A DNA stretch of 64,000 bases from Longimicrobiales bacterium (GTDB lineage Bacteria > Gemmatimonadota > Gemmatimonadetes > Longimicrobiales > Gaopeijiaceae). A model generated the notes under the pieces. It ran no database searches and was not told where the DNA came from. It saw nothing but the letters and a program-made list of their open reading frames with translations. A program made the translations under genes and the position numbers. Of this stretch, positions 31,398-50,822 are shown in pieces (within the stretch, counting starts at the first letter, position 1; each line of letters opens with the position of its first letter). The DNA is taken from assembly GCA_965202985.1 (NCBI GenBank), contig CBDBCF010000001.1:2016001-2080000 (forward strand), written 5' to 3'.

Positions 31398-31437
31398 GTG
31401 ACAGATTCTCGGACAAATTCATGGAGGAATCTGTCAC
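31398..31437. repeat. 40-bp palindromic element E1 (GTGACAGATTC-N18-GAATCTGTCAC)
   Basis: Perfect 11-bp inverted arms; supplies the helicase stop codon; related to the element at 48797-48838. Confidence 0.75.
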
Positions 31438-34400
31438 GACACTGCCGTTGCCGGGCCACCCACCGCCATCCAGCAGACCACGCCCACATCGTCGGTGGTG
31501 ACGGGCCGGCGCTCCGGGGGCGGTTCCACGACTCGGAGGCCGAAAGAGCGGACGACTTCGGCGATGCGGAGGGCGGCGTCGCTGCGGGTGATTTCGTTGC
31601 GCTCGGTCTGGCGCTTTATCTCGCCCAGCGCTCGGCGAACGGGCTGGTTGCGGCCGACGCCCAAGGCCTGATAGGCGGTCTCGCCGCCGGGGGGTAGGGT
31701 GACCGACGGGTCGGCGAGCAGGGTCTGGGCCCAGGCTTGGATTTTGCCGACGGAACGAGACCGGGAGCCGGCGGCGGCTTGGCCTCCGGGCTGGCCTCCG
31801 GGCATCGCGAGGGCGTTGTGCTCCTCGACGATTGAGCGGGCCGCCCGCTCCCACGCCGCTTCCAAGTCGATATCCGTTGGGGCTTCCACGCCGGGCGCAG
31901 AGCCCGGGTCGATGCGACGGAGGATCGCCGCGGGCTCGACGAGCACGTTGTCGGCGTCCACGTAGCGCCAGTAGCGTTCGCCCTCGACACGGCAGGCGAA
32001 GAAGACGCCGGGCGCACCGGACGACGGGACGCCAGGGCCTTGCCGGAACGCCGCGCCGACGCCCCACGGCAACTTGCGCAATTCGTCGCCCCTTCCTTCC
32101 GCAAGCTCCCGACCAAGCTCGGCTCGGAGAACCTCGTTGTTGGGGCCGTGCGCCCGCGCCGCGCCGTCGGGGCCGCCCAGGCCGTTTGCGCCGTCCGCGC
32201 CCGCTTTCGCGCCCCCTTCGGCCTCGTCCAGCAGGGTCTCGTCGCCCGCGGCCAAGCGGGCCGCGTAGGCGCGCATCTCGTCGTCGGCGTCGTCCACGAC
32301 CTGCACTTCCATGCCGAAGGGCCGCGCGGCCATGATCTTGCGGCGGATCGCGCGCTCCAGCTTCAAGATCACCTCCAGGTCGCCCGGCTCGGGCAGCATG
32401 GTGGTCAGGTGCACGTCGGCGTGGGGGCTCTTCAAACGGATGACGCGACCGTAGCGCTGCACCATGCGCTGCGGGTTCCACGGCATGTCGTAGCTGACCA
32501 CGGCCGCCGCTTGTTGCAGGTTCTGGCCCTCGGACAGGACGTCGTTGCTCAGCAGCAGGTCCACTTCGCCGTCGGGCGGCCGGTAGCCGGGGCGCACCAC
32601 GGTATCGGGGCAGAAGCGCGACAACATGGCGGTGCGCTGATCGGGGTTCGTCTCGGCGCCCACCACGGTCACGCGGTTGCGGCCAGCGACGGACTCGGGC
32701 AGGTGCTCGTCCAGGTAGCGAACCGTGTCGGCGAAGGTGGTGAAGACGGCCACCTTCTTGGACGGTGCCCCCTCCAGCACGCGACGCAGAAGGGCGAGCT
32801 TGGGGTCGTCCTCGGGGCGCAGCGCGGCCAGGCGCGCCTGGATCTGCTCCAGCAGGGCGGCGTCGTGCTCCACATGGTCGCGAAAGGCCGGGTCGTAGTC
32901 GCCGACGGGTCCCGCGTCGCTGTCGTCTTCAAGCGCTTCCTCCACCCACTGGGCCAGGGCGGACTCGTCCAACTCGCCGTGCGCGGCGCGAAGGGACTTG
33001 CGGCCCAGCACCCGTCCCGCGTCCCACGCCTCCAAGAACGCCCGGTGCGCGTTCAGCATCCGCCCGACGGTGAGCAGGCAGGCGTGCCAGCACGACTCCA
33101 GGCGCTTGAGCACGCCGGACCGTAGGAGGGCGCTGATCACGACTTCGCGCTGTTCGAGGGCGCGGGTCCGGTGGTAGCGGCTCCGGCAGTAGCGGGCCAT
33201 GTGCAAGGCGTCGATGCGCTCGGCGACGTAGGTGGCTAGGCCCGTGGGCGCGTCGTGCTGCTGGTCGCGGGGCTCGGCGTCGTGGCCTCGGCCTGGGTCG
33301 GCGTAGTCCAGGTCGTAGCGCTCGGTGGTCAGGTGCGGCTTGGGGAAGGTCACCGGCGTGCCGTCGGGAAAGACGGCGTCGGGGTACTCGCGCACGATGA
33401 ACCCCCGATCCCGACGCACGCTCACCATGTCGGCCAGCCCGAAGAGAAGGTCCGGGTTGAGGTTCTGGGCGTCGTGCTGGTTGGCGCCGGCGCGCAGGAA
33501 CAAGGTTGAAAGCGACGGGATGCCTTCGCCTTCGAACGCTCGGTCGTGGCGGGCGAACGCCATCACCAAGTGGTACAGGTCCCAGAGCCCGTTGTTGATC
33601 GGCGTGGCGGTGAGCAGGACCAGGTCCTTGGGCTGGCCGCCCAGCAGACGCGAGAGCGCGCCGTACCAAGTGGTGCTCGGGTTGCGGAGCGCGTGGGCCT
33701 CGTCGAACACGATCAGCCGATAGGCGTCCTTGTCGTTGGCCAGCGCCGGCTTGCCGGGGGCGCGTCCCGGACCGGCCAGTCCGAGCCCGGCCAGCTGCGG
33801 ATCGCCCGCGAACTCCTGATAGCTGACGACTTGTGCGGGCAGCCGCGTCTGGTGCAGTCGATCCTGCCAGTGGTCGCGAAGCTGGGCCGGCACCACGAGC
33901 AGGATGTGCTGGCCGCGCCGGACGGCGTACTCCTCCACGAATGCAAGGCCGATCTCCGTCTTGCCCGTGCCCACGCCGTCGGCGTACACGACACCGTGGC
34001 GGCGGCGGACGATGGCGAGCGCGCGCCGGAAGCCGTCGTCCTGGAAGGGTGCCAGCTTGACGGCGCTGGGGGACGGAAGGTCGTCGTCCTCGTCCAAGTC
34101 GTCGCCCAGAAGCTCCAGCAGCGCGCGCAGGTAGACGGTGCGGGGGTCGAGAAGGCCGGGGTCGGGAAAGAGCAGCTCGCGAAGCCGCTCCTTGAAGTCG
34201 TCCGATTCCTCCCACAGCCCATCGAACCATTGCACCGCCCGCTGGGCCACGGGCGGATCGTAGTGGACCAGTCCCAGCTCCAGGTTCCGCCACATGCCGG
34301 CCGACGTCAGGTTGGCGGAGGTCACCAGCGCGGCTCGCGCGTCGCCGGCGTCGCCGAACAAGTACGCCTTCCCGTGAAGAAACTTGTGCACGTAGCGCCG

Positions 34401-34763
34401 CACCGCCACGTCGGGCCGATCCAGCCACTCCTTCACGGCGAGCAACTGTTGCAGCGCCCGGCTGGGCGGAAAGCGCGACAGGTCCCGTTGGTCGCCGAGC
34501 GCCAGCAGCGTCCGTTCGAAGAGGGTGGCCGGGACTTCGTCGCCGATCCCGGTGGGCATGGTGCCCAGCAGTAGGCGCGTTCCGCGATCTCGGTCTTCGA
34601 CCAGCGCGGCCAGGTGGCGCAGCCCGCCCAGGTTCACGTACCCCGTGGCGACGGAGAGGCCGTGGCGGTCGTCAAAGTCGGCGGCGAGGTAGGACAGCGC
34701 CTCGCCGTGGTGGGTGGCGTCGGCTTGGTTGTCGAGGAGGGAGGGGCGTTGGGTCGAAGGCAC
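31434..34763 (-). CDS. SNF2-family helicase with N-terminal phospholipase D-like (nuclease) domain
   Basis: ATGYVN, LHGKAYLFGD, TSANLT, NLELG (PLD-like); ADGVGTGKT, DEAH, LTATP, SEGQNLQ, WNPQRMVQRYGR (SF2). Confidence 0.92.
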   Translation of the reverse strand: MPSTQRPSLLDNQADATHHGEALSYLAADFDDRHGLSVATGYVNLGGLRHLAALVEDRDRGTRLLLGTMPTGIGDEVPATLFERTLLALGDQRDLSRFPPSRALQQLLAVKEWLDRPDVAVRRYVHKFLHGKAYLFGDAGDARAALVTSANLTSAGMWRNLELGLVHYDPPVAQRAVQWFDGLWEESDDFKERLRELLFPDPGLLDPRTVYLRALLELLGDDLDEDDDLPSPSAVKLAPFQDDGFRRALAIVRRRHGVVYADGVGTGKTEIGLAFVEEYAVRRGQHILLVVPAQLRDHWQDRLHQTRLPAQVVSYQEFAGDPQLAGLGLAGPGRAPGKPALANDKDAYRLIVFDEAHALRNPSTTWYGALSRLLGGQPKDLVLLTATPINNGLWDLYHLVMAFARHDRAFEGEGIPSLSTLFLRAGANQHDAQNLNPDLLFGLADMVSVRRDRGFIVREYPDAVFPDGTPVTFPKPHLTTERYDLDYADPGRGHDAEPRDQQHDAPTGLATYVAERIDALHMARYCRSRYHRTRALEQREVVISALLRSGVLKRLESCWHACLLTVGRMLNAHRAFLEAWDAGRVLGRKSLRAAHGELDESALAQWVEEALEDDSDAGPVGDYDPAFRDHVEHDAALLEQIQARLAALRPEDDPKLALLRRVLEGAPSKKVAVFTTFADTVRYLDEHLPESVAGRNRVTVVGAETNPDQRTAMLSRFCPDTVVRPGYRPPDGEVDLLLSNDVLSEGQNLQQAAAVVSYDMPWNPQRMVQRYGRVIRLKSPHADVHLTTMLPEPGDLEVILKLERAIRRKIMAARPFGMEVQVVDDADDEMRAYAARLAAGDETLLDEAEGGAKAGADGANGLGGPDGAARAHGPNNEVLRAELGRELAEGRGDELRKLPWGVGAAFRQGPGVPSSGAPGVFFACRVEGERYWRYVDADNVLVEPAAILRRIDPGSAPGVEAPTDIDLEAAWERAARSIVEEHNALAMPGGQPGGQAAAGSRSRSVGKIQAWAQTLLADPSVTLPPGGETAYQALGVGRNQPVRRALGEIKRQTERNEITRSDAALRIAEVVRSFGLRVVEPPPERRPVTTDDVGVVCWMAVGGPATAVS

Positions 34764-35432
34764 TACCGGGGAGCTCCGAGTTGTCTCAGGCGTTCGCGTC
34801 CCGCCGGCGTGAGGCGGTATCGCTGCTTGCTGCTGCGCGGCTTGTCCGGGATCGTCATTTCGGTCAGTCCGGCTTGCAGAGCAGGGAGCAGGTAGGCTTC
34901 GCGGAAATGGATCCGATGTCTGAGGCCGAGAGCCTCTTGGATGCCCCGCGTGGTCATTTCTCCCGACATCGCCCGGAGCAATCGGACTTCAAGGCCAACG
35001 TCCCCGGCAACTTGTTCGGTTGTGCCTCCAACTTGTTCGGTGGCTTGATCGGTCACTTGTTCGGTCGAATCTTCGACTTGTTCGGTCACTTGTTCGGCAG
35101 CGTCCTCAACTTGATCGGTGAGGTCCCGGTGACTTTTCGGGCGCCTCGCGGGCCGCCCCCCTTCTCGCACGACCGGACGCACTTTCGGGTTCGGTCGGAA
35201 GGTGACGGTGACGAAGCGATCCACGTCGAAACTCTGGTTCCGGGCAGTCCTGCTGTCGGGTGCCGTCCCGGATGCGGCGGATGTCGAGCCGGCCGTGATG
35301 CCGGACAACCGCATCCAGCTGTCGAACTTCTCGCAGTCGAAATCTTCTGGATAGCTGAAGCGTGGACAGGGAGACAGGTCGAACCGAATGGCGCCCTCGG
35401 CCTGACAAAAACTCGCGGATCTCGTCACGATT
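34763..35432 (-). pseudogene. remnant of an AlbA/RecG-like ATP-binding regulator with a Fic-associated C-terminal HTH and TEQV repeats
   Basis: C-terminus GLRHRIHFREAYLLPAL...MTIPDKPRSSKQRYRLT. At the 5' end RDEIREF and QAEGAIRFD lie in different frames across a T-run at about 35407-35411. The central domain appears to be missing. Confidence 0.6.
35010..35119. repeat. coding repeat (ACTTGTTCGGT-like units encoding TEQV/TDQV)
   Basis: About seven copies of CTTG(T/A)TCGG with 12- or 21-bp spacing. Confidence 0.75.
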
Positions 35433-35889
35433 CGTCTTCTGCGTCACGGCGCCGACGGCCACTCTTCGGCCCTTCTGCTTCGCCGTTGGGATCCTCCGCC
35501 GAGTAGTGAGCGCGCGGCTCCCGCACCCCAGCGCCTGGAACCACGTCCACCCCGGTGCCGGGCTGGCCGGCGCCTCCGAGACGTCGAGGGTACGACCGTT
35601 CGTCCACCTTGGTGCTCAAGGAACCGACGACGGCCTTCATATCGCCAAGCGAAGCCGTGACCTCTCGGTGGTTCTCGTCGACTCGGTCCTCCAGCCGCTC
35701 GATCCGGCGGCTGATCTCTTGCTTCATGCTGCCGATCTGCTCCGCGAGCCGCTTCTCTCCCGCTTCGCGTCGCTGCTCCGCCTCCTGCTGTTCTCTGCGC
35801 CTGTCGGCCTTTGCTGCTCGATGCACGCCAAGGGCAGATACCGCAATCGCCACGATCGTCCAAAAATCACCGTTGGAGAAAATCTCCAT
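35425..35889 (-). CDS. hypothetical protein, N-terminal TM plus coiled coil
   Basis: AAAGGA RBS; FWTIVAIAVSALGV hydrophobic stretch followed by charged heptads. Confidence 0.7.
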   Translation of the reverse strand: MEIFSNGDFWTIVAIAVSALGVHRAAKADRRREQQEAEQRREAGEKRLAEQIGSMKQEISRRIERLEDRVDENHREVTASLGDMKAVVGSLSTKVDERSYPRRLGGAGQPGTGVDVVPGAGVREPRAHYSAEDPNGEAEGPKSGRRRRDAEDES

Positions 35890-36044
35890 CGTGCTGTCCT
35901 TTCACTTGGGGGTCGGGCCGCCGGCGGGGCCGCTCTCGGTTCGGGTTCGCTGCGCCTCCCAATCTACATCGAGAAACGGCTCGGACGAACACTCGTGGGC
36001 AGAAGACCTGAGATTTGGGACGCCCGGCACGTGCGGACCACGGC

Positions 36045-37070
36045 TCATTCGAGCAACGCCGGTTGGGCGGTGCGAGCCGCAGCTTTGGCGCGTGGTTCAG
36101 GACGCCCGAGCCGCCGCACTAGCGCTGGCGAGAGATACAGGGACTCGACGGTTTCGCGGGCTTGACCCAGCAATGTGGCTTGAGTTGACCTTCCAGCCGA
36201 GACGTAGATGTGATGCAGCCGAAGGACCCCAGGCAGCGCCTTGCCGTGTGTCTTTTCGCCGGTCCAGCCGTCGTAGCTAACGACGTAGGACAACTCCAGC
36301 TTGTTCATTGTGCGTAGCGTGCCAACGAACTCGTCGTAGTCGACGCCATTGCAATAACGTCTGTCTCGCGCTTGCGAAGTGCCTTGGTATGGTGGGTCGA
36401 AGTAGACGAGATCCTCCGGCGTGGATGTCAGTGCTACTCGTCGATAGTCCGTTGCCGACAAGGATGTTCGGCCTGCCAGCAACCGGTGTACGCCGAGTAT
36501 TTGCCGTCTCATGACCGAAGGCCTCATTCCGGCTCGACGGTTGTCGGGACTCTGGTTGAAAGCTCCGTCGGCGTTGTACCGGACCGACCCCTTCACGATT
36601 CGAGCCAGAAGATAGAGAAGATGGCTCGGCTGATGGGATTCGTTGAACTCCCTGCGCACGCCGAAGAAAAACTCCTTCATGTAGGGCTGCTGATCGCGCC
36701 ACAGGCGAGCGTAGTCGGCAACGAGTTGTTCGGGCCTCTCCACAATCTCCCTCCAAAGGGCCATCAGAGGCGCGTTGAGGTCGTTGATCCAAAAACGCCT
36801 TGCCAACCCATGGGTCGCGGCGGCGATCGACACGGCGGCCGAGCCGCAGCAGGGCTCCACCACCCGATCGAGGCCCGGCGGAAAGTACGGCAGGATGAAC
36901 TTGGCGATTCCCCGCTTGCTCCCCTGGTAGGGGAACGGGTGCGGGGCCGCCGGACCGGCCCTGGTCTTCGCTTCCAACCTGCTGATGTTTCCGTCGCTCC
37001 TTCCTGGGGCACGTCGCGTCTCATCGAACCGGTACCGTCCGTAGTCCCCGGCCGGCTTCTGACGCGGCAT
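36045..37070 (-). CDS. DNA adenine methyltransferase, Dam/D12 class (no cognate endonuclease seen)
   Basis: PFPYQGSKR, VEPCCGSAAV, WINDLN, LVYFDPPY; AGGAGG RBS 8 nt before ATG 37070. Confidence 0.92.
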   Translation of the reverse strand: MPRQKPAGDYGRYRFDETRRAPGRSDGNISRLEAKTRAGPAAPHPFPYQGSKRGIAKFILPYFPPGLDRVVEPCCGSAAVSIAAATHGLARRFWINDLNAPLMALWREIVERPEQLVADYARLWRDQQPYMKEFFFGVRREFNESHQPSHLLYLLARIVKGSVRYNADGAFNQSPDNRRAGMRPSVMRRQILGVHRLLAGRTSLSATDYRRVALTSTPEDLVYFDPPYQGTSQARDRRYCNGVDYDEFVGTLRTMNKLELSYVVSYDGWTGEKTHGKALPGVLRLHHIYVSAGRSTQATLLGQARETVESLYLSPALVRRLGRPEPRAKAAARTAQPALLE

Positions 37071-37106
37071 CGCGAGCACCTCCTACTAATCTGGTGTCCT
37101 GGGCGC

Positions 37107-37153
37107 GAAGGGCAAGAAGTACACCTCCCCTTCTCAACCTTATCTTGCCCTTC
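37107..37153. promoter_or_regulatory. inverted repeat upstream of the Dam-like MTase
   Basis: GAAGGGCAAGA-N25-TCTTGCCCTTC, perfect 11-bp arms. Confidence 0.5.
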
Positions 37154-37320
37154 TCGCCGCCACTCCACAGGTCGTCCGGGCGCGTTGTGAGAAATGCGGG
37201 CTAAGTCCAGCCCCGATCTCGGGTCCGACACCTAACGGAGCAGTACTTCATCAAGGTCAACATTGAGGCCGAGACGGCGGCGAGCCTAGCCCGCACGATG
37301 ATTCTTCCGGCGGCGGTCCG

Positions 37321-37644
37321 CCCCGGAGCTGCCGGTTCACGGCTCGGGGCCCGACCTGTCCACCGCCACCGGCGCGCCCAACTTCCGCCAAGTCGGCGAC
37401 GTGACGATCACCGGTTTCTTCGAGCAGGTGGAGTTGGACTACGACATCACCGGCACCGTCGACTGGGAGCCCGGTTCGCCCGCCCACCGGGCAAGTGCTC
37501 CTTGGACCTGGACCTGACGGGAAAGGTTGATGTGCCGGGCATCGCGGCGACCGACTCGGTGACGATCCTCCGGAGCGCGCTGTCGGGCACCCCTGCGAAG
37601 AGGCCGTCAGCCTGCCGCTGGTGGAGACCATCCACTCGAACTGA
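37321..37644 (+). pseudogene. frameshifted 3' half of a paralog of the 37777-38400 lipoprotein
   Basis: DNA colinear with about 38080-38400 (for example GGCAAGTGCTC...GACCTGAC, CTGTCGGGCAC), with several indels. Confidence 0.75.
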
Positions 37645-37776
37645 GGGCGGGGCAACCGGGCCTGCCCGCGCGGCCCGTGGGGTTCCGGGGGAACCTTTTT
37701 CGCGAACGGCGGGTATGAAAGATGTGTCGCGGCGCTCCGCCTCCGACGCCGGAACCGAGAACGAAAGGAAATCGAG

Positions 37777-38400
37777 ATGAAGAAACGCACGCGAACCCAG
37801 TGGAAGCTGCTGGCGGCGCTGAGCGCGCTCCTGGCCGTCGCGGCTTGCGACGACACCGTCCGACCGGTCCAAGACGACGGGCTGACCGAGGCCGAGGTCG
37901 TGGCGCTGGTGGACGGTTTGGCCGCAGTCGGCGGCCTGACCGGGGTCGCCGCCGCCACTCCCGTCGTCGACCCACCAGCCATCGACTGCCCCCTGGGCGG
38001 CAAGGTGGACCTCTTGCGCAGGGTCATCGCCGACACGGTGACCACCCCGCTTCTGGTCCTGCGCTCCGATCTGGTCATGACGCCGCACGACTGCCGGTTC
38101 GAGGCTCGGGGGGTGACCTTCACCGCCAACGGTGCGCCCGACGTACGCCAAGTCGGCCGCATCAGGATCACCGGCCAGTACGAGAAGGTGGAGGTGGACT
38201 GGGAGATCGCAGGCGCGGTGGACTGGGAGACAAGCTCTCCCGCCCGGCACGGCAAGTGCTCGCTGGACCTCGACCTGACAGGAGAGGCCGACGTGCCGAC
38301 CGCCGAGTCGAGCGACGCGGTGGTGGTCTTTCGGGGCGTCCTGTCGGGCACCGCCTGCGACAAGGCCGTCAACCTGCCGCTGAACTCCAGTGGGAGCTGA
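37777..38400 (+). CDS. hypothetical lipoprotein
   Basis: AAAGGA RBS; MKKRTRTQWKLLAALSALLAVAA-C lipobox; four further Cys. Confidence 0.8.
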   Translation: MKKRTRTQWKLLAALSALLAVAACDDTVRPVQDDGLTEAEVVALVDGLAAVGGLTGVAAATPVVDPPAIDCPLGGKVDLLRRVIADTVTTPLLVLRSDLVMTPHDCRFEARGVTFTANGAPDVRQVGRIRITGQYEKVEVDWEIAGAVDWETSSPARHGKCSLDLDLTGEADVPTAESSDAVVVFRGVLSGTACDKAVNLPLNSSGS

Positions 38401-38426
38401 GAAACCTGTTCGCGAACCGCGAGTAG

Positions 38427-38838: not shown

Positions 38839-38879
38839 GGAAGCTGACGCCGGTGCCGCCACCGGTTGCCCCGGTGCGA

Positions 38880-39250: not shown

Positions 39251-39322
39251 CCAATCGATCCTCGCGGGCGGGCGTGGGTTGGAGGACCCGCGGCCGCGCC
39301 GAAGCCCCGCCGGCGTATAGAG

Positions 39323-39508
39323 CGATCGATGCCCGGCGGGAAGTAGGGCAGGATGAACTTGGTGAGTCCCCGCTTGCTCCCCCTGGTAGGGAAATGGGTG
39401 TGGGACCGCCGGGCCGGCCGTGGTCTTCGCTTCCAGTCTGCTCATGTCTCCGTCGCTCCTTCCTGGGGTACGTCGCGTCCCACTGAACCGGTATCGTCCG
39501 TAGCCCCG
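39323..39508 (-). pseudogene. diverged, frameshifted duplicate of the 5' end of the Dam-like MTase (direct repeat of 36865-37050)
   Basis: MSRLEAKTTAGPAVPHPFPYQG, then an extra base in the C-run (CTCCCCCTGG vs CTCCCCTGG); about 185 bp colinear. Confidence 0.85.
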
Positions 39509-39524
39509 AGAACTTCAAGCCAGT

Positions 39525-40202
39525 TCATCGGTCATCGGCGGTACACAGATGGGCCACAATCTTCGACGACAGGAACGGATAGGCGCGCGAGTCGAGCTGC
39601 CGTGCCAACCGCTCGGGAACCTCGGTGTCCGTTGTCTGCAAGCGTGCCGCCGCCCCGCCTGGACCACGCACGGGTATCCTCGGAACGCCCGGCAGCATGC
39701 GCCCGACCGTTCGGTACTCTTCTTCAACGCCGTCCATCCCGCCCACAAACACCGCCCCAGCAACGCGTCCGAAGCTCAGCATCTGCTTCCGCATCGTCTT
39801 CAAGGTGTTGTCCAGGTCTCGGCGCTTGTTCGTCCAGTGGATTCTCCCATAGCCAAGGTCCACAAGTCTCCGAGTTTCCGGCGTGACCTGCTCTCGGAAC
39901 CACTCCGATTGGAAGATGTCGACCGAGTGCTTGGCATCATGCTCCATGGCGATCGCCAGCACGAGTGGCGTGATGGCAGGGTGGCCTCCGACCAGCAACC
40001 TGCCGTCCCGGGACAGAACAGCTCGTAACAGCGCTGTCACAGCATCGGCGACTGCAGACGGGTCGTAGGGCCGGACCGCCCTTCCGCGCTCACCGGAAGG
40101 AAAGCTCGCTGACAGAAAGACGTACCGTCCTCCAAGGGAATTCATCGCCAATCTGTCACCTCCTGGGCCCGGGTGTGGGTTCAGGGCGTCCCGCAGGGTC
40201 AT
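39525..40202 (-). CDS. SLOG cluster 3-like domain protein
   Basis: VFLSASFP, LLVGGHPAITPLV, IFQSEWF, AVFVGGMDGVEEEY, PGGAA. Start is 40202 or 40145. Confidence 0.8.
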   Translation of the reverse strand: MTLRDALNPHPGPGGDRLAMNSLGGRYVFLSASFPSGERGRAVRPYDPSAVADAVTALLRAVLSRDGRLLVGGHPAITPLVLAIAMEHDAKHSVDIFQSEWFREQVTPETRRLVDLGYGRIHWTNKRRDLDNTLKTMRKQMLSFGRVAGAVFVGGMDGVEEEYRTVGRMLPGVPRIPVRGPGGAAARLQTTDTEVPERLARQLDSRAYPFLSSKIVAHLCTADDR

Positions 40203-40205
40203 TCA

Positions 40206-41045: not shown

Positions 41046-41072
41046 GGCTCAGTATCCTTTGCGTGTCAGTGG

Positions 41073-41921
41073 TCAGCGGATCTCGCCGATTCTCGGAAAA
41101 CCGTCCCAGGTCGTACCGTCGAGCTCCCGGCCACCCGCCTTCGGTGTCCGACCGCCCCACTGCTTGAAGAAGAACGGTACGCCGCTTGCGGTGCAGTCGT
41201 CCCGGACGGTGCGCGCCCACTCGGGAGCCATCTGACGGGCATCATGGCCGCTCTCGCCCCCGACGATAACCCAGTGGAGCCCCGGGGAGGCGTCCTTGGC
41301 ACCGAGGCCGGAAAGCCTGCCACTGGCAGGGGCGTCGCTACGGGCGGCGTCGCGGCCGCGCAGAAAGCCGGACAGGTCCAGCGGCCCGATCAGGGGCTCG
41401 CAGCTCAGGAAGCGCACGGCGGCTGGGACGGCCAGCAGGTGCCGTACCCGATAGGCCACCGACTGGTCCTCGACGGACGTGCCGATCCAGATGTGGGACG
41501 GGAGCCCGGCCGGGAACAGGTCGGCGTTGCGTCGGACGAACTTGGCGGCCCTGGCGGGGCGCTTCGTCAGGACTTGGTAGACGTGACGGCCGATGTCGAG
41601 CATCACCTGGAAGCAGCGTCGGACGAACTCCTCCGGGACCTCCTTGTGGAAGAGGTCCGACATGGAGTTGACGAAGACGCGGCGGGGCCGTCGCCACGAC
41701 GCTGGGATCGGCAGGCGATCCGGCCAGAGGCGGACGGCGAAGGGGTTCCGTCGGTTCGCCGCCGTGTTGACCACGGGCAGGCGGGCGCGATAGGTGGTCG
41801 CCAGCAGGCGGTTCGACAGGCGCTCGGCGTAGCAGTGGTCGCAGCCGGCCGAGATGGGCGTGCATCCCGTGGTGGGGTTCCAGGTGGCGTCGGTCCACTC
41901 GATGGCGGTGCGTTCGGGCAA
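41073..41921 (-). CDS. DUF5131 / phage Gp37-Gp68 family protein (three-Cys motif)
   Basis: IEWTDATWNPTTGC-x6-C-x2-CYA, FVNSMSDLFH, LTKR, FLSCEPL, WVIVGGESG, FFFKQWGG; AGGAG RBS and TTG start. Confidence 0.95.
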   Translation of the reverse strand: MPERTAIEWTDATWNPTTGCTPISAGCDHCYAERLSNRLLATTYRARLPVVNTAANRRNPFAVRLWPDRLPIPASWRRPRRVFVNSMSDLFHKEVPEEFVRRCFQVMLDIGRHVYQVLTKRPARAAKFVRRNADLFPAGLPSHIWIGTSVEDQSVAYRVRHLLAVPAAVRFLSCEPLIGPLDLSGFLRGRDAARSDAPASGRLSGLGAKDASPGLHWVIVGGESGHDARQMAPEWARTVRDDCTASGVPFFFKQWGGRTPKAGGRELDGTTWDGFPRIGEIR

Positions 41922-41977
41922 GGACGGCTCCTAGGGCGGCGGGTCACCGGGGGCTGGCTCGGCGGCCCGGTATCCGA

Positions 41978-42006
41978 AAGGTAGTTGTTCGGCTTTTGTT
42001 CGGCAA
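41978..42006 (-). promoter_or_regulatory. sigma70-type promoter with an overlapping GAAC-N7-GAAC direct-repeat operator
   Basis: Minus strand reads TTGCCG-AACAAAAGCCGAACAAC(17)-TACCTT; GCCGAACAA occurs twice with 11-bp period. Confidence 0.6.
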
Positions 42007-42049
42007 CCAGATTGGCGGTGGACTGACCCGGTTTCGTGCAGTTCGAACT

Positions 42050-42102
42050 CCGTCAAATCGCAGGTAAAGCGCGTCGGCGTTCTTGGCGACACGTAGCTTC
42101 AT
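42050..42102 (-). pseudogene. truncated DUF2283-like fragment
   Basis: MKLRVAKNADALYLRFD resembles the DUF2283 N-terminus; similarity is lost immediately afterwards. Confidence 0.5.
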
Positions 42103-42214
42103 GGGGTTGCTCGAGATGACCGCCGGTAGGCCGCGGCCCACGAGTTCGAGGTGTCGGTGATCACGTTCCGGGACTTGGGACAAGCAGGCCGCCATCGACG
42201 GACGTTGCCTCTGC

Positions 42215-42805
42215 CTATCCGTTCGCCAACTGCATCGCCCAAACGCCAATAATCGTTACAGCTCCTAGCAGCAGACCACTTCGCAGGCAATTGAAAGCGG
42301 CGACATTCCAGTTGTGCTTCTTGGTATTCGCCAATTCCTGACAAAACACCTCATTAGAAAGTACGCTTGCGTCTCGTATTCCACGAAATTCAAATTCTGT
42401 CCCTTTGCCAAACATCTTGGAAGTCTGATTTGCTTTCAACGTGATGTACCATCCAATCAATACATACGCTAGTGAGAAAAATAGTCCAACAATTCCAACC
42501 CATGTCCAGTCGATCGGATGAGAAAGGGTAACCAACAGTCCGGCAAAAGCAAGTATTCCCAGCAATCTCTGCCCTAGTCTGTCAGTCTTCGCCTCGATCG
42601 ACTCAGCTCGTTCATGTTCCTGTTCAAGCCGCGTCTTCAACACCCACAGCGGAATGGCCTCATAAGGCGATGTTTCATTATTAATACGTGAATCGATATC
42701 GTGATTCGCTCGCCAAGCTTTCCAAAATGGCATCACCCAATCCCAGAGGCCCTTCATCCAGAACACTACTCGGGCACCAAGGCGCCTCAAATTCGCCCTA
42801 AGCAT
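42215..42805 (-). CDS. 3-TM membrane protein with Pycsar-effector-like topology
   Basis: EHERAESIEAK helix, then two TM segments, a soluble loop, a Q...N..K helix and a third TM. Start overlaps the ATP-grasp stop; low GC. Confidence 0.7.
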   Translation of the reverse strand: MLRANLRRLGARVVFWMKGLWDWVMPFWKAWRANHDIDSRINNETSPYEAIPLWVLKTRLEQEHERAESIEAKTDRLGQRLLGILAFAGLLVTLSHPIDWTWVGIVGLFFSLAYVLIGWYITLKANQTSKMFGKGTEFEFRGIRDASVLSNEVFCQELANTKKHNWNVAAFNCLRSGLLLGAVTIIGVWAMQLANG

Positions 42806-43754
42806 TCGCTGGTGCCAACCAAGTTGCTAGGGCAACATCGATTGGCCGATCGTCGTTTGCCAGCCAGCTCCATTCGCCTGTCGGGTTGATCTCAATGAAG
42901 AAAATGCCCTTGTTGTTTTCGGCGAGGTCTATGGCTGCAAACGACAAGCCCAAGTTCCGAACAAGTTCTCGGCACTTGTGCTCAATGTCTGGCGTCAGTC
43001 GGCAGGAATCATAAACAAGTTGATTCTTGGGGATCACGCGCCAATCGCCTTCTATGCCCTTCTCGTCCTTTAGTACACGAACGGCGAATACATGATCGCC
43101 TACGACAGTAACGCGCAAGTCGTGCTTGTTCTTTATTGCCTGTTGCGCGACCACCGGCGCGGTTGCGATGGTGGCATCAGTCAGTCGATCCCGCTGAAGA
43201 ATCGTGGTATACGTGAACAAGCTTTGCTCGCCCTCAGTCAGCAGCACCGTATCTAGGGACTTGATTGCTAGCTCTGTCGGAAAGACGGCGTCGATGCTTT
43301 CTACGTCATTGGTGACCAAGGTACGTGGTACGCGAAACCCCACTCGATCAGCCGCCGCCAATTGATAAGGTTTGGATTCTGCTTGATATGTTGCAGACGG
43401 GTGGTTCATCCAGCGAGCCTCCTCAAACACTGACAGTGACCTAAGAAATGCCATCCATTGCGACCTGTCCAGTTGCTCGCTCACAGACAATGGAACACCG
43501 GGCGAATTCCTGTGAAAAATCGGAGCTCTATACCACACCGACTTTAGATTCTCGACAGAATGTCGTCCGACTGGTCCACTGATCTGCATCAGCGGCCCCA
43601 AGGGGTCGACAGTTATCCGATGTCTTGCCAAGTCTTCTTTGTTGAGGCGAACATAGGATACGCCCGCCGCTTCCAACCTAGCCGTGACCATGTCGGCGGC
43701 CAGGTCATAAAGACTCGACAAGATGAGAACTTCTGAAGTACTTCCTCCCTTCAC
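42798..43754 (-). CDS. ATP-grasp ligase, RimK-like MvdC/MvdD-type peptide maturase
   Basis: VLILSSLYDLAAD, SVWYRAP, WMNHP, AESKPYQL, GFRVPRTLVTN, QQAI..K.DLRVTVVG, DWR, FAAIDL, FIEINPTGEWSWL. Confidence 0.9.
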   Translation of the reverse strand: MKGGSTSEVLILSSLYDLAADMVTARLEAAGVSYVRLNKEDLARHRITVDPLGPLMQISGPVGRHSVENLKSVWYRAPIFHRNSPGVPLSVSEQLDRSQWMAFLRSLSVFEEARWMNHPSATYQAESKPYQLAAADRVGFRVPRTLVTNDVESIDAVFPTELAIKSLDTVLLTEGEQSLFTYTTILQRDRLTDATIATAPVVAQQAIKNKHDLRVTVVGDHVFAVRVLKDEKGIEGDWRVIPKNQLVYDSCRLTPDIEHKCRELVRNLGLSFAAIDLAENNKGIFFIEINPTGEWSWLANDDRPIDVALATWLAPANA

Positions 43755-43942
43755 GATCCCTTCATGTCCTCGCCGGTCTCGATATCGTGCTTTTTCGTTG
43801 CCGCCCGGTATGCCGGGTTCAGCACCATCGGCTTGCCGTCCTTGACCCAGTAGCCCCGGGCCGAGTCGTAGACAGCGCCGGGGGGCATGTCGACGGTTTC
43901 TCGTGTAGGGTGGCGAGACGCGAGATCGATCAAGATGTGCAT
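43751..43942 (-). CDS. putative graspetide (ATP-grasp-modified RiPP) precursor, 63 aa
   Basis: AAGGAG RBS 6 nt before ATG 43942; MHILIDLASRH...YDSARGYW...AATKKHDIETGEDMKGS; its stop overlaps the ligase start (GTGA). Confidence 0.8.
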   Translation of the reverse strand: MHILIDLASRHPTRETVDMPPGAVYDSARGYWVKDGKPMVLNPAYRAATKKHDIETGEDMKGS

Positions 43943-44057
43943 TGTCATCTCCTTGGTGAAGGTCGGCGTGCGTCGTCCATCCACTACAATAACATGCGTG
44001 TCAAGGGGCAGGGCTGGCGCAAGCCGGAGGGTAAGATGGCGTCTCCGTACGCTGTTC

Positions 44058-47000
44058 TTAAACGTCAAGCCCTCTCAGGTGCTCAGTCAAGCGGGTGCGG
44101 TACGCCGCCGGCAGCGCGGCGTGCGTGAAGTCCTTGTAGATCACTTCGAGGTCGTCGGGGCCGAGACCCCAGGCCCGGGCCACGCGGGCGTCGATTTCCA
44201 GGCGCAGCTCCGTGCGGTCGGCGTCCAGCAGCGGGCCGTACTCCACGCCGGTCTCGCGGGCGAAGTCGGCGAAACGGTCGTCCACGGCGGACAGACGGGC
44301 GGCGGCTCCGGCGATCTGGGCGAAGTCGTCGTCGGTCAGGGAAGGCACGTAAAGGCTCTCGAGCAGGAAGAAGTTGACGTTCAGTTCGATGAATCGACGG
44401 GCCTGCCAGTCGAAAGGCAGGCTGTTCATGATGCCCAAGCAAGCGGCCCGCGCCAGCCCGTCTTCGGTCGAAAATGACAGATAAGGGGCCTTATTTGTCA
44501 AGAAAACCCCATTCGGGACCAAGCAGGCGATCACGGTGCGCGAATTCGTGCGGTTCGTGACATCTCGAAAGCACAATCTGTCACGGCAGATGTCAGCCAA
44601 GACCGACTGCCTGCGTTCGGCCACGGGCAGGTCCGGCGCAAGGAGCGAACCGGAACCGGGCCTGGGCTTTCGCACCTTGGCCCAGAGCGCGTCGGTCAGC
44701 GGCAGGGACCGCTCGCCGTACCCGTGAGGATCGTACTGGCCGAAGCTCTCGCCCTTCCAGAGACGGGCGTCGCCGTCCCGTCCTGCCCACAGCTTCTTGT
44801 CGTTGGTCTCGTGCAGCTCGGCCACCGGAAAGCAGGACCAACGCCCGTCGGCGCCGCGAGGGAAGAGGCTGCCGGTGCGGACGCGAGCCAGTAGGTCGGC
44901 CTCGGCCTGGGAACGGACCAACGGCGTCTCCCATTCCGGCCCGAAGGTGGACGGGGCCAAGCCGACGCCGGGGCTGGCCGCCTGCTCGACCCACATGCGC
45001 TTGGATTCAGCGGTGCCGGCCACCGACACCAAGTGGTCCGCCGCCGGCAGCCCGCGCTGGGCAACGACCAATGCGATTGAGTATTGCGGGTGCGTGTCGA
45101 ACGCCCACCGTCCCCGGTTCAGCAGGAAGTCCACCCGGCGCGTCGTCGATCCTCGATAGAGCCACTTGCGGAACTCCTTGGAGCCCTTGGCCACGAATGC
45201 GGTCCTGGGCAGCACCACGCCGGCGAACCCGCGCTCGCGCACCAACATCCGGTAGCGCTGGCAGAAGTACTTGTACAGGTCGGGGTCGCCGCCCATCGGA
45301 TCGTAGTCGCTGCGCTCCGGGTCGGGTCCCGCCAGGGCTTGCCGATAGTTGCGAGCCTGCGCTTGCCGAGCCTCCAGCCTTTCCTCCAACTCCGGCCGCT
45401 CCCGCATCAATTCCCCCACCCACTCCCGCCGCTCCTTCTCAGCCAAAGCCGCGATCCCAGGACGGTACAGCCCGTAGAACGACAGCTCCTCGACCGTCAC
45501 TTCCTCCCAGGGCGGGTTGCCGACCACCACGTCGAACCCCGGCGACGACCGCGAGAACACCTGCGGGAACGCCAGCGGCCAGTGGAGGAAGCAATGCCGG
45601 TCGGCCAGCTCGCGGGCTCGGCGCACGAGCGCGGTCTGGGGTTTGCCCGAGATTACGGCCACGCCGTTGGTCGCCACATCTTCGCGCGCGCCAGCCAGTC
45701 CGAACTGCTCCGCCGTCCACAGGTCGAAGAGCCGCTTCATCCCCTCGGTTGCGTCCGACGCCTCTTGGTCCGCCGCTTGGCTGGCCGCGTACTCTTCGGG
45801 CGTGCGGTCGTCGATCTCGGCCAACTTGTGCACCGCCGCCGCGGCCTCGTTCAGCGCTTGCCGCAACGGCTCCCGGAACAGCGGGGCTTCGTCCAGCAGC
45901 GGCTTCGGGTCGCCCACGCCGATCAAGGCGTCGCCCACGACCACGTTCCGTCCCAAGTACGCCAGCGACAGGCCGGGCACGAACGACGCCAGCCACAGCG
46001 ACAGCGCCGCCACCTCGACGCCCATCGCGCTCCGGTCCACGCCGAAGACGCAGTGCTTGACGATCAGACGGCGGAGCAGGGCCGCGTCTTCGCACGCCAC
46101 GCCGGGGGACGCGCGGCTGCGCAGTCGTTCCAGCGCATCCAGCAACGGCGGCAGGGGGTGCTCGGCCAGGAAGCGCACGGTCATCTCGGCCAGGGCGTCC
46201 GCGACCTGCACAAGGAAGTGCGCGCTGCCGCACGCCGGGTCCACGACCGCGAACGACAGCAGAAGCTTGGCCGCCGCCTCCGGGTCCGTTTTCGCCTGCT
46301 CCGCCACTTGCGCCAAGTGCTTCTTGAACGGCGGCTCCACGGCTCCCTTCACCAAGTGGCGCACGATCTCGACCGGCGTGTAGTAGACGCCTTCCTCCTT
46401 GCGACCGCCCGCGTGGGTCTGCCAGAGCAGGCCGCCCGGCTTCACTTCCGCCGCGCCCGGCGACGGCGCGCTCACGTAGCGGTCCTTCTTGGCGTCGTAG
46501 CGCAGCGGGCGGGCGGCCAGCGACAGGCGCAGGCCCAGCAGGGACTCGTAGGTGTGGCCGATGTGGGCGATCTCCAGCGTCGAAAAGTCCGCTCCCCTCC
46601 CTTGCTCGGCGTCGTGGCCGACAGCCGACAGTACGCGCCCGAACTCGGGGTCGCGCAGCTCCATCCGCTCCAGCAGCTCGGCGCCCGCGAAGTCCTCGGC
46701 CGCGAAGAGGGCGCCGTTGTAGGCGGGCACGTCCCAGGCCGGATTGCCGGATCGCATCGCCTTGACCAGCCGCGTGAACCCGTTCCACAGCGCGGACGAC
46801 GCCGGGCTTAGCTTGCCCTTGGTCGCGTGGGCCTCGGTTACAAGCTCCGACAGCGACGCCTTGCGGTAGGACTCGTTGTTCATCGGCAGATGGCCGGCGG
46901 CTTCCGCAAAGAGGATGAACACGGCGCGGAACACCAGCGTCATCGCGGCCTTCTCCAGCTTGTCGCGCTGGGTGTCGTCGTGCAGGTCCAGGCCGTGCTC

Positions 47001-47966
47001 CTTGGCCCATCGCTCCATGTCGGCGGCCAGCGCGGGCAAGGCCTCCTGACGGATCGTGCGGTCCAGCCGGGCGCGCAGCCGGACGCCGAAGTTGATCGCT
47101 TCTTTTTGCAGGTCGGCGAAGCCGTGGCCGGCCAGGGACGCGGGCGCGAGCAACGCCAGGAAGGCGCGCCGGTCGTCGTCCAGCAGGTCGTCGTCCAGTT
47201 CGAGCCAGTGGCGGGTGCCGCCGGGGGACTCCATGTCGAACAGGCGGAAGCAGCCGCGAAACGCCAAGATGCCGTAGCGAGCGCCTCGTTCCTTGCAGTC
47301 CGACGCCAGCAGTCCCTCGGGCGGACGGCCGTCGCTGTCCAAGCGGGCCAGCGCACTCGCCGTCTTCTTGGGATGCACCACCGCCACCGGCCGGCCTTCG
47401 TGGACGGCCAAGTAGCCCCGGCGCGGAAGGCGGTCCAGGCGGTAGCCCAGCGCCGACAACGTCTGACGCCACGAACTCGGCGCGGGCGGGAGGTCAGCCA
47501 CCGCGCGGCGGGCGCGCTCCCATCGCGCGGGGTCGCGCCGATAGCGGGATTCCAGGGTGTGGCTGGTGAGGAGGCCGTTGAAGGCCAGCCCGTTCCCCGC
47601 GGCGCGGTTCAGCTCGTCCGCCAGTCGGCGCACGGCTTCCAGGGGCGACAGGTCCCCCAGCGACTCGAGCGATTTGGCCAGGTGGCCGGCGTCCACGGAG
47701 CGCACCGGGCCTTGGTGCGTGACCGGCCCCAGGACGCGGAGGCGGCCGGGGCGCTTGGGGTCGTCGGCCAGCAGCAGGCAGCGCCGGGTGACGCCTGCGG
47801 ACAGGGCGCGCCATTCGGCTCGCATGGCGGCGTCGGTGGTCGAGGCGGAGGCCGTAAGGTCGATGTCGCCGACGGCGGCGCGGGGGAGCGCTTCGGCGCC
47901 GGGGGCGGTCAGCGGGCGCGCCACGCCTTCGCGCACCAGGCGGCGGATGAGGTCGGGGGCGGTCAC
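44058..47966 (-). CDS. large Eco57I/type IIG-like N6-adenine DNA methyltransferase with TRD
   Basis: YNGALF, IGHTYESLL, GVYYTP, VDPACGSAHFL, VVGNPPW, DLYKYF; C-terminal RDVTNRTNSRT...NSLPFDW TRD. Confidence 0.92.
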   Translation of the reverse strand: MTAPDLIRRLVREGVARPLTAPGAEALPRAAVGDIDLTASASTTDAAMRAEWRALSAGVTRRCLLLADDPKRPGRLRVLGPVTHQGPVRSVDAGHLAKSLESLGDLSPLEAVRRLADELNRAAGNGLAFNGLLTSHTLESRYRRDPARWERARRAVADLPPAPSSWRQTLSALGYRLDRLPRRGYLAVHEGRPVAVVHPKKTASALARLDSDGRPPEGLLASDCKERGARYGILAFRGCFRLFDMESPGGTRHWLELDDDLLDDDRRAFLALLAPASLAGHGFADLQKEAINFGVRLRARLDRTIRQEALPALAADMERWAKEHGLDLHDDTQRDKLEKAAMTLVFRAVFILFAEAAGHLPMNNESYRKASLSELVTEAHATKGKLSPASSALWNGFTRLVKAMRSGNPAWDVPAYNGALFAAEDFAGAELLERMELRDPEFGRVLSAVGHDAEQGRGADFSTLEIAHIGHTYESLLGLRLSLAARPLRYDAKKDRYVSAPSPGAAEVKPGGLLWQTHAGGRKEEGVYYTPVEIVRHLVKGAVEPPFKKHLAQVAEQAKTDPEAAAKLLLSFAVVDPACGSAHFLVQVADALAEMTVRFLAEHPLPPLLDALERLRSRASPGVACEDAALLRRLIVKHCVFGVDRSAMGVEVAALSLWLASFVPGLSLAYLGRNVVVGDALIGVGDPKPLLDEAPLFREPLRQALNEAAAAVHKLAEIDDRTPEEYAASQAADQEASDATEGMKRLFDLWTAEQFGLAGAREDVATNGVAVISGKPQTALVRRARELADRHCFLHWPLAFPQVFSRSSPGFDVVVGNPPWEEVTVEELSFYGLYRPGIAALAEKERREWVGELMRERPELEERLEARQAQARNYRQALAGPDPERSDYDPMGGDPDLYKYFCQRYRMLVRERGFAGVVLPRTAFVAKGSKEFRKWLYRGSTTRRVDFLLNRGRWAFDTHPQYSIALVVAQRGLPAADHLVSVAGTAESKRMWVEQAASPGVGLAPSTFGPEWETPLVRSQAEADLLARVRTGSLFPRGADGRWSCFPVAELHETNDKKLWAGRDGDARLWKGESFGQYDPHGYGERSLPLTDALWAKVRKPRPGSGSLLAPDLPVAERRQSVLADICRDRLCFRDVTNRTNSRTVIACLVPNGVFLTNKAPYLSFSTEDGLARAACLGIMNSLPFDWQARRFIELNVNFFLLESLYVPSLTDDDFAQIAGAAARLSAVDDRFADFARETGVEYGPLLDADRTELRLEIDARVARAWGLGPDDLEVIYKDFTHAALPAAYRTRLTEHLRGLDV

Positions 47967-48165
47967 GGGAACGAAGGTACGGTTCCGGGACCTTGGCGCA
48001 CAGGTCGCGGGCGTAGGCCAGAGGCCTTGGGCCAGCGCCCCCGGTGGCCGCCATCGGCCGGGTCGAAAGCCGGACCGACTTGCCCGAGTCCGAGATGATC
48101 CAGTACCATTGGAACAGTCCGGCCTAAACGACCAGTCGATTTATGTGGCCAGAAGGAGGACAGCC

Positions 48166-48411
48166 GTGCTGACAGTAGGAGCCTACCAAGCCAAGACCCG
48201 TCTTTCGGAGTTGTTGGGCCGGGTTGCCGAGGGCGACAGCGTCACGATTACGAGACACGGACGCCCAATCGCGCGGCTGGTGCCCGTGGAAGACGACGCA
48301 AGGCGGAGAGCTTCCCAAGCCGCAGAGCGGATTCGAACACGGCGTGCGGGCCCGCAGACCGTTCCGCTTGCGGAACTGGTGCGCTGGATTCACGAGGGGC
48401 GTCGCCGTTGA
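48166..48411 (+). CDS. Phd/YefM family antitoxin
   Basis: AGGAGG RBS; VGAYQAKTRLSELLGRVAEGDSVTITRHGRPIARLVP. Confidence 0.92.
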   Translation: MLTVGAYQAKTRLSELLGRVAEGDSVTITRHGRPIARLVPVEDDARRRASQAAERIRTRRAGPQTVPLAELVRWIHEGRRR

Positions 48412-48760
48412 TCGTTCTGGACGCTTCGGTCGCGCTGTCCTGGGTTCTGGCCGACGAAGGCACCCCGGAAGCCGAGGAAGCGATGCGACAGGTCGTGTTG
48501 CCGAGCGACGAGGACGGATTAACTCCCGGGAGGTAGCCGATACGCTGGTCGACTTGGCCCAACTTCCGATCATAGTCGACGAAGGCGACGAGGACGCGGA
48601 CATCCTGGGAGCAGCGCGCCGCCGGAAGCTGTCGGCCTACGACGCCGCCTACTTGGCGCTCGCTGGCCGACGGCGGCTCCCGCTGGCCACCCTGGACAAC
48701 CGACTCTGGAGTGCGGCTTCGGCGGAAGGCGTGCCCTTGGTCACCAACTTAACCCCCTGA
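48408..48760 (+). pseudogene. vapC: VapC PIN-domain toxin, internally deleted and frameshifted
   Basis: TTG-IVLDASVALSW...stops at 48534-48536. The C-terminal half (AERRGRI...LSAYDAAYLALA...LATLD) is in another frame and the middle conserved-Glu helix is missing. Confidence 0.85.
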
Positions 48761-48796
48761 CCTCGACTCGGCGCTTTCTGCCGTGCAGAGGCGTCG

Positions 48797-48838
48797 TTGA
48801 CAGATTCTCTGCCAGTTTTGTTGGGGTCAATCTGTCAA
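48797..48838. repeat. 42-bp palindromic element E2 (TTGACAGATT-N22-AATCTGTCAA)
   Basis: Perfect 10-bp arms; shares TGACAGATTCTC and AATCTGTCA with E1 in the same orientation; supplies the DUF4276 stop codon. Confidence 0.75.
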
Positions 48839-50654: not shown

Positions 50655-50822
50655 TATCTCCCCGGACACGGCCGGACGGCCGGAGCGAGTTGGGCCGGAA
50701 TTGCGTGGACGCACGAACGATGCAGGAATCTACGACCGGGCGGCTTCTGCTGCAAGGAGAGCAGGCGAGGTCGGGGGCGGCGACGCCACGCGGGGCCGTC
50801 ACGTTTGCCTCGGCGGAGGCCG

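What the first reader, a model, noticed from the sequence alone, without database searches (positions are those of the whole stretch)
31398..48838. Related 40-42 bp palindromes (TGACAGATT...AATCTGTCA) bound a 17.4-kb defence block, with half-sites inside
Seen: E1 GTGACAGATTCTCGGACAAATTCATGGAGGAATCTGTCAC (31398-31437) and E2 TTGACAGATTCTCTGCCAGTTTTGTTGGGGTCAATCTGTCAA (48797-48838) are in the same orientation. Each lies between convergent genes and contributes the TGA stop of a minus-strand defence gene. E1 is exactly at the core/island junction. CAATCTGTCAC also occurs at 40149 (near the SLOG gene start) and 44574. I did not notice this AT-rich motif outside the block. Inference: att-like recombination sites, or a REP/MITE-type element used for cassette capture. 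No recombinase is in the window.
Basis: partly seen in the sequence, partly recalled or inferred. Interest (0 to 1): 0.7.

Follow-up and report, generated by a model that had tools for sequence, protein, structure and literature searches.

The report
Fic repressor sites spread genome-wide
The two palindromes are copies of a 38-letter DNA site found about a dozen times in this genome and in related bacteria; it is likely the docking site of a self-regulating Fic protein, and it has been built letter by letter even inside housekeeping genes, so it likely does not mark the ends of a mobile defence island.

Summary
E1 and E2 are real, but they are not an att pair. They belong to a genome-wide site, TGACARAT-N4-TGACARAT-N10-ATYTGTCA (11 copies, plus the 40-bp E2). 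No recombinase lies near any copy, and defence genes run on past E2.

The site tracks one gene, a Fic + winged-helix protein beside icd. A core lies within 200 bp upstream in 30 of 30 fetched orthologue loci. In one sister genus cores occur in 40 of 40 genomes with the orthologue and 1 of 13 without (only 2-3 independent losses). Partner cores lie 84 or 95 bp apart. In hisD, thiI and uvrA the core arose by point substitutions without insertion. The Fic catalytic His is mostly replaced by Arg.

Best reading: the operator of a CccR/SoFic-like autorepressor, spread across the chromosome. Binding is inferred, not shown, and why the copies spread is open. Two relatives show inserts flanked by about 40-bp site duplications, so some cassette capture at sites remains possible.

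The parts
31398..31437 (+). E1: full three-box site (A 31399-31406, B 31411-31418, 10-bp spacer, C 31429-31436); C gives the helicase stop
48797..48838 (+). E2: degenerate copy (A 48798-48805, worn B 48810-48817, 12-bp spacer, C 48830-48837); C gives the DUF4276 stop
   Evidence: not recovered by the fixed-length profile
44475..44500 (.).
44558..44595 (.).
40150..40158 (-). Lone box between a GGAGG stretch and a possible ATG of the SLOG gene; membership doubtful
30704..31330 (+). hupE/ureJ-family gene, left neighbour of E1; unlinked from the helicase block in three relatives
31434..34763 (-). PLD + SNF2 helicase gene, right neighbour of E1
44058..47966 (-). Type IIG (Eco57I-like) restriction-modification gene carrying the paired cores
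48224..48760 (+). PIN toxin ORF (Phd-PIN pair), left neighbour of E2
48835..50714 (-). HEC-01B (DUF4276) and HEC-01A (AAA ATPase) genes, right neighbours of E2; defence genes continue beyond

Best explanation
E1, E2 and the paired cores in the type IIG gene are copies of a genome-wide DNA site that is likely the operator of a self-repressing Fic + winged-helix protein encoded elsewhere in the genome (G000:C2:904012-905166, beside icd). Shown: the site family, its place in front of the fic gene, its co-occurrence with that gene, the 12-bp and 84/95-bp spacings, and its growth by point substitution inside genes. Inferred: a dimer reads the B-N10-C core; extra boxes 12 bp further out add cooperative binding; a partner core 8 or 9 helical turns away closes a DNA loop; the copy just downstream of the predicted fic promoter represses fic. 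Inferred with less support: in these lineages the Fic domain has mostly lost its catalytic His and the protein works as a chromosome-wide DNA binder. The scattered copies would be kept by selection for binding as such, wherever the sequence tolerates them (gene ends, convergent gaps, codons that nearly matched already), not to regulate the neighbouring gene. Bound or bridged sites would now and then act as insertion hot spots, giving ~40-bp duplications.
For: A core (up to 1 mismatch) lies 63-193 bp upstream in 30 of 30 fetched orthologue loci (30 of 40 orthologues fetched). Worn versions lie upstream of His-bearing homologues G389, G017, G339. Paralogues with another recognition helix have no core in 5 of 5 loci, and 3 of the 5 show GGACA(C/T) repeats instead. 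Family sample of 151 genomes: all 6 with 7 or more cores have the homologue; of 136 without it, 2 have one core and none has more. Genus g35: at least one core in 40 of 40 with the orthologue, 1 of 13 without; that one is 86% complete and also lacks icd. Where fic is gone or split, the operator beside icd is worn or absent. Partner cores peak at 84 and 95 bp; one genome has 95 where six sisters have 83-85. hisD DAFGAVFV to DRFGAVFV, thiI and uvrA cores arose without an indel in the core. A 123-bp relic of a type IIG gene in G003 keeps just the paired-core stretch, with the worn core now exact. A sigma-70-like promoter ends 21 bp before the fic site. The model (pLDDT 89) matches CbFic2, CccR and SoFic folds (Z 26.8, rmsd 5.1, 329 aligned; Z 25.8, rmsd 12.0, 321; Z 25.2, rmsd 10.2, 314). 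Homodimer score 0.78 against best control 0.00; the mark was reached by 20 of 30 solved pairs and 1 of 23 single chains; runs agree in at least 69% of contacts, pLDDT at least 84; like dimers are solved, so the pass may be from memory. CccR and SoFic bind their own promoters as dimers.
Against: No binding was measured. On the icd tree the gene's presence changes only 3 times, 2 forced by well-supported branches, so the genus table is 2-3 contrasts and its Fisher p overstates. Six of 15 genomes with a homologue at E<=1e-30 have no exact core, and G001, G002 and G280 have only one. His loss is not required: G003, G521 and G167 keep it and have 11, 9 and 8 cores. An operator model does not by itself explain the two inserts flanked by site duplications. 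Some in-gene copies lie in loops of variable length (FAD oxidase, ABC linker, NTP transferase), where insertion is not excluded. The benefit of scattered copies is not shown.
Confidence: 0.7

Rival explanations
1. The sites are crossover sites of a site-specific recombinase (FRT- or pdif-like: two arms around about 6 bp plus accessory direct repeats) that captures cassettes; the fic link is a by-product.
For: The anatomy resembles tyrosine-recombinase sites (recalled). In G003 an AlbA/RecG-C gene between sbcC and nifU is flanked by an exact 39-bp duplication, where G002 has one site. In G223 a 1.85-kb insert between icd and fic is flanked by an exact 28-bp (about 40-bp imperfect) duplication, where G125 has one site. 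In run X7 one contig leaves the window after the hupE stop and another starts 5 letters before E1.
Against: No intact tyrosine recombinase beyond XerC/D in G000-G003, none by XerC/D similarity in any locus held, and no resolvase in G000. A canonical dif-like site of unrelated sequence lies at C2:~435060. E1 and E2 spacers differ. In hisD, thiI and uvrA the spacer follows the host protein's codons.
Confidence: 0.12
2. The sites are bound by another, unidentified protein that is inherited together with fic; the fic gene is just one target.
For: Only 2-3 independent losses link gene and sites; whole gene contents of relatives were not compared.
Against: The site precedes the fic gene also where the upstream neighbour is not icd (G389, G017, G339), and paralogues with another helix have another upstream repeat.
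Confidence: 0.08
3. The sites are a small mobile repeat (REP/MITE) copied around the genome.
For: Multi-copy, often at gene ends; some copies lie in variable loops; the icd-fic gap grows where a second core appears.
Against: Spacers differ from locus to locus and are kept among orthologues; in-place substitution in conserved genes; no target duplications at most copies; no Y1 transposase in G000.
Confidence: 0.05
4. The sites are bidirectional RNA terminator hairpins.
For: E1 and E2 fold at -17 to -22 kcal/mol; convergent gaps are over-represented, 7 of 23 resolved intergenic loci against 12% of gap length, p about 0.02 on crude gene calls.
Against: AT-rich stems without a U tract; fixed 10-, 12- and 84/95-bp spacings; non-complementary linkers; 26 of 108 classified sites lie inside coding sequence.
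Confidence: 0.05

Closest known systems
CccR of Yersinia pseudotuberculosis (PMC9755527; PDB 7XUX)
   Same: Fic + C-terminal HTH, dimer, represses its own gene by binding a long-spaced inverted repeat at its promoter (passages); fold match Z 25.8, rmsd 12.0, 321 aligned.
   Different: CccR's site is AGATAATCAT-N26-ATGATAATCT, and CccR has an active His and AMPylates FtsZ. Here the sequence differs, there are extra boxes at 12-bp period and partner cores at 84/95 bp, the His is mostly Arg, and the site recurs 10-31 times per chromosome, also inside genes.
SoFic (10.64898/2026.07.09.737422) and CbFic2 (PMC10628234), class II Fic-wHTH enzymes
   Same: Same domain order, N-terminal helix dimer (predicted interface residues 12-40); SoFic dimer binds its own promoter within 100 bp of the start (passages).
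   Different: Both are active enzymes with 14-18% identity to this protein; no operator sequence or dispersed sites appeared in the passages read; CbFic2 was tested on random DNA.
DNA uptake sequences, matS, parS and Chi-type dispersed chromosomal motifs
   Same: Protein-recognised motifs that build up by point mutation, also in coding DNA (uptake sequences: search listing and abstract start only; the others recalled).
   Different: Tens of copies, not thousands; a 24-50-bp multi-box site; tied to a Fic pseudo-enzyme; no clear positional bias on the chromosome was seen.
FRT, attI and pdif recombination sites
   Same: Core inverted repeat plus accessory direct repeat; occasional modules between direct repeats (anatomy recalled).
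   Different: No cognate recombinase found; spacers not shared between neighbours such as E1 and E2; growth by substitution.

Membership tests
Operator of a Fic-wHTH autorepressor (CccR/SoFic type) | Cognate protein has Fic domain plus C-terminal winged helix | tested here: met
   Pfam Fic; model and fold matches over residues 1-382
Operator of a Fic-wHTH autorepressor (CccR/SoFic type) | Inverted repeat conserved just upstream of the gene | tested here: met
   30 of 30 fetched loci; promoter-like match 21 bp before the G000 site
Operator of a Fic-wHTH autorepressor (CccR/SoFic type) | Homodimer through the N-terminal helix | tested here: inconclusive
   Predicted only: 0.78 against 0.00, may be from memory of solved relatives
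Operator of a Fic-wHTH autorepressor (CccR/SoFic type) | Sequence-specific binding and repression | not testable with these tools
   Needs EMSA, footprint or reporter
Active Fic AMPylase | HPFx(D/E)GN(G/K)R motif with catalytic His | tested here: not met
   G000 reads IRPFEDGNGR; of 30 g35 orthologues 26 have Arg, 2 His, 1 Val, 1 not parsed
attL/attR pair (E1-E2) | Shared crossover core between the two ends | tested here: not met
   Spacers of 10 and 12 bp with different sequence
attL/attR pair (E1-E2) | Empty site with a single hybrid copy in relatives | tested here: not met
   No core at hupE loci of G001-G003; left and right flanks unlinked there. These relatives are about 70-78% identical over this flank, so the test is weak
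attL/attR pair (E1-E2) | Cognate recombinase | tested here: inconclusive
   None found beyond XerC/D and a broken integrase; genome 92% complete; PF07508 not searched
dif/pdif (Xer) site | XerC and XerD arm consensus around 6 bp | tested here: not met
   Arms unlike the genome's own dif-like site at C2:~435060 (consensus recalled)
REP/MITE | Copies are insertions, with a cognate transposase | tested here: not met
   Substitution without indel in hisD, thiI, uvrA cores, acyl-CoA dehydrogenase and type IIG; no PF01797
Known structured RNA | Rfam match | tested here: not met
   0 matches in the window at gathering score

The most novel reading that the evidence does not exclude
A former Fic toxin has been turned into a chromosome-wide DNA tagger whose own binding drives the spread of its sites. 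DNA carrying the looped operator is preferentially kept or recombined, like a long, low-copy uptake or Chi signal, so near-matching codons in essential genes are rewritten towards the site, relic DNA is kept only where it carries the site, and new defence and other cassettes enter at sites with a ~40-bp duplication.
Probability: 0.25. Interest if true: 0.85.

Novelty: new variant of a known kind. Interest (0 to 1): 0.62.

Why it matters
It gives a testable operator for a Fic-wHTH family for which, in the papers read, only CccR has a mapped site. It also records a natural series in which a binding site is assembled codon by codon inside essential genes of a 68% GC genome, against the GC bias, and decays when the protein is lost. 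That makes it possible to test whether a DNA-binding protein can reshape its own chromosome by selection or by drive, and whether such sites seed cassette insertion in defence-rich symbionts.

Tried and rejected
Recombinase next to a copy: none (neighbours by Pfam). Excised-circle joint from E1 to E2: none among the joints shown for runs X2, X7, X8, X11 (32 more joints not shown; contigs only). X7 has almost no cover at 48593-49256, which is no finding. No RNA holder listed. dif/pdif, Rfam RNA and tRNA targets rejected. My first idea of shufflon-like exchange in the type IIG gene was dropped, because the core there follows conserved codons. The window's own Fic-like_C gene (34763-35428) is unrelated to the candidate protein and its 12-bp repeats have another sequence. 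The metagenome and viral scans (58 and 3 loci) gave look-alikes in low-GC gut, phage and other contigs that lack the arm and spacer consensus; I set them aside and kept only loci over 60% GC for (one such locus, L163, is probably not a member). Two fuzzy matches in G000 (C1:1635894, 2079867) were dropped as chance. Plasmid tblastn gave no match at E<=1e-30. The genome-contig scan found 8 loci only. Paper searches showed no description of this motif or of dispersed Fic operators; the library lacks most subscription journals. Supplements of the three papers read were not seen and may list further binding sites. Look-ups found no earlier scan notes.
Full report
Observation. E1 (31398-31437) and E2 (48797-48838) are present as quoted. 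Each lies between convergent genes and supplies the TGA of the minus-strand gene. All 6 exact TGACAGATT matches of the window fall within the block. The block holds a PLD/SNF2 helicase, a D12 methylase, SLOG, PDC-M41A/B, a type IIG RM gene and Phd-PIN. Defence genes continue after E2 to the window end: HEC-01, MT-A70/MunI-like, HipA and type III RM. So E2 is not the edge of the defence region.

The element is genome-wide. The 3.86-Mb genome has 11 copies of A(TGACARAT)-N4-B(TGACARAT)-N10-C(ATYTGTCA), E1 among them, plus the 40-bp E2. A profile built on these 11 gives 15 core hits and 0 on reversed or complemented genomes. It is circular for the training sites, but it adds cores at window 44475-44500 and 44558-44583 and at C2:580531. 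Box pairs peak at inverted gaps 10 and 22 and direct gap 5 (12, 11 and 12 cases, against 0-5 elsewhere). Neighbours are mixed: housekeeping genes as often as defence genes, and several copies lie in frame inside genes.

Test of the att idea. G000 has two XerC/D-like genes and one broken integrase; G001-G003 have two each. No resolvase or Y1 transposase was found in G000, which is 92% complete. A dif-like site of unrelated sequence lies near the skew maximum of C2 (consensus recalled). Three same-genus genomes carry the helicase and IIG genes close together, unlinked from hupE, with no core at the helicase end or at hupE. E1 and E2 sit at synteny breaks but have different spacers. In sequencing runs no E1-E2 joint was among those shown. 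One strain (X7) has other DNA after hupE and a contig starting at E1, which shows variability there, not a crossover.

Which protein. The three-box pattern occurs in 12 of 401 phylum genomes, all in this family. Notes and record titles place the group in Gemmatimonadota (Longimicrobiales), and sponge metagenomes hold the window. One locus recurs across genera: icd, the site, then a ~385-aa Fic + winged-helix gene (G000:C2:904012-905166). Of 151 family genomes 15 have the homologue. All 6 genomes with 7 or more cores are among them, and of the other 136 none has more than one core. In genus g35, 40 of 53 genomes have the orthologue (my cut: best E at or below about 1e-75). At least one core occurs in 40 of 40 against 1 of 13, and at least three in 33 of 40 against 0 of 13. 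The exception also lacks icd and is 86% complete. On an icd tree of 47 rows the label changes only 3 times, so this is 2-3 contrasts; where fic is lost or split the neighbouring operator is worn or gone. A core lies 63-193 bp upstream in 30 of 30 fetched orthologue loci. In G000 it sits between a sigma-70-like promoter and the ATG. Paralogues with another recognition helix lack the core in 5 of 5 loci, and three show GGACA(C/T) repeats. His-bearing homologues G389, G017 and G339 have a worn site upstream and 0, 1 and 0 cores genome-wide at one mismatch.

The protein. The model (pLDDT 89) matches Dde_2494, CbFic2, CccR and SoFic. A homodimer through the N-terminal helix scores 0.78 against a best control of 0.00. 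The mark was reached by 20 of 30 solved pairs and 1 of 23 single chains; runs agree in at least 69% of contacts, pLDDT at least 84; like dimers are solved, so the pass may be from memory. CccR represses its own gene through an inverted repeat with a 26-bp spacer (PMC9755527, passages). Dimeric SoFic binds its own promoter (10.64898/2026.07.09.737422, passages). CbFic2 activity is switched by DNA (PMC10628234, passages). Here the catalytic His is Arg in G000 and in 26 of 30 g35 orthologues. G125, with 31 cores, has a fully worn motif, but G003, G521 and G167 keep the His and have 8-11 cores.

Geometry. Among 116 distinct sites, extra boxes lie 12 bp outside the core (100 of 232 site sides), and partner cores peak at 84 bp (19 counts) and 95 bp (10), that is 8 and 9 helical turns. 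Pairs count twice and orthologues are not independent. This fits a looping DNA-binding oligomer (inference) better than an RNA hairpin.

How copies arise. Against site-less G000 orthologues, the cores in hisD (DAFGAVFV to DRFGAVFV), thiI and uvrA of genus g35 arose by substitutions with no indel in the core, the spacer following the host codons. The same holds for acyl-CoA dehydrogenase and the type IIG gene in genus g1. Other in-gene copies lie in variable loops, fresh in G000 and worn in its relatives. In G003 a 123-bp relic of a type IIG gene (72-74% identical) keeps only the paired-core stretch, and its second core is now exact. Resolved intergenic loci lean towards convergent gaps (7 of 23) and away from divergent ones (2 of 23, fic locus left out; p about 0.02 each, crude gene calls, 35 of 108 sites unresolved). 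This argues against a gene-specific regulon.

Two inserts are flanked by a duplicated site that is single in a relative: an AlbA/RecG-C gene between sbcC and nifU in G003 (39 bp exact; G002 single) and 1.85 kb between icd and fic in G223 (28 bp exact, about 40 imperfect; G125 single). G003 also has same-spacer repeats between tandem methylase paralogues. Most other close pairs of sites have different spacers.

Verdict. The palindromes are most likely operators of a CccR/SoFic-like Fic-wHTH autorepressor (inferred; 0.7 for the whole account). The autoregulatory kind is known. The spread of the operator to 10-31 chromosomal places by in-place substitution, with a mostly dead Fic site and phased partner cores, did not appear in ten paper searches. 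Whether selection for binding or a binding-driven drive spreads the copies is open.

Noticed in passing
window 34763-35428 (-): Stand-alone Fic-like_C winged-helix gene with in-frame 12-bp repeats coding TEQV units just before the helix domain (35005-35127); possible self-binding repeats, unrelated to the TGACARAT site.
   Followed up: partly
window 41944-44068 (-): Low-GC (52-54%) group of a 105-aa peptide ORF, a RimK-like ATP-grasp gene and a membrane protein, resembling a microviridin/graspetide-type peptide cassette (recalled), inserted in the defence block.
   Followed up: no
window 36865-37048 and 39323-39507: About 190-bp direct repeats (86-88%) from the D12 methylase 5' part flank a 2.4-kb insert with internal 645/760-bp repeats of small lipoprotein-like genes; run X7 shows joints matching loss or gain of this piece.
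   Followed up: partly
window 44457-45383: Strain X7 differs in several stretches of the type IIG gene's C-terminal part, suggesting specificity-domain variation.
   Followed up: no
G000:C1:1863700-1865556: Array of 17 tRNA genes on one strand.
   Followed up: no
G000:C2:~435060: Canonical dif-like site near the GC-skew maximum; skew minimum near C1:1,598,000.
   Followed up: partly
L186 (G220 uvrA): AT-rich in-frame insertion of 57 bp with extra ATCTGTC boxes right after the core in uvrA.
   Followed up: no
L222-L251 (fic orthologues of genus g35): Core number follows the recognition helix: SRRTLRRDL/SRRTLQRDL genomes have 5-23 cores, SARTRRRDL/SARTLRRDL/SERTRRRDL genomes 1-4; confounded with clade.
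   Followed up: partly
L042:3044-12169 (G003): Three tandem ~990-aa methylase-like paralogues, each followed by a site with the same spacer; a G000 methylase-like gene at C1:1563518-1566019 also ends in a site.
   Followed up: partly
L152, L170, L172: Phage-like contigs carry a look-alike GTGACAGAT direct and inverted repeat, possibly a replication origin.
   Followed up: no
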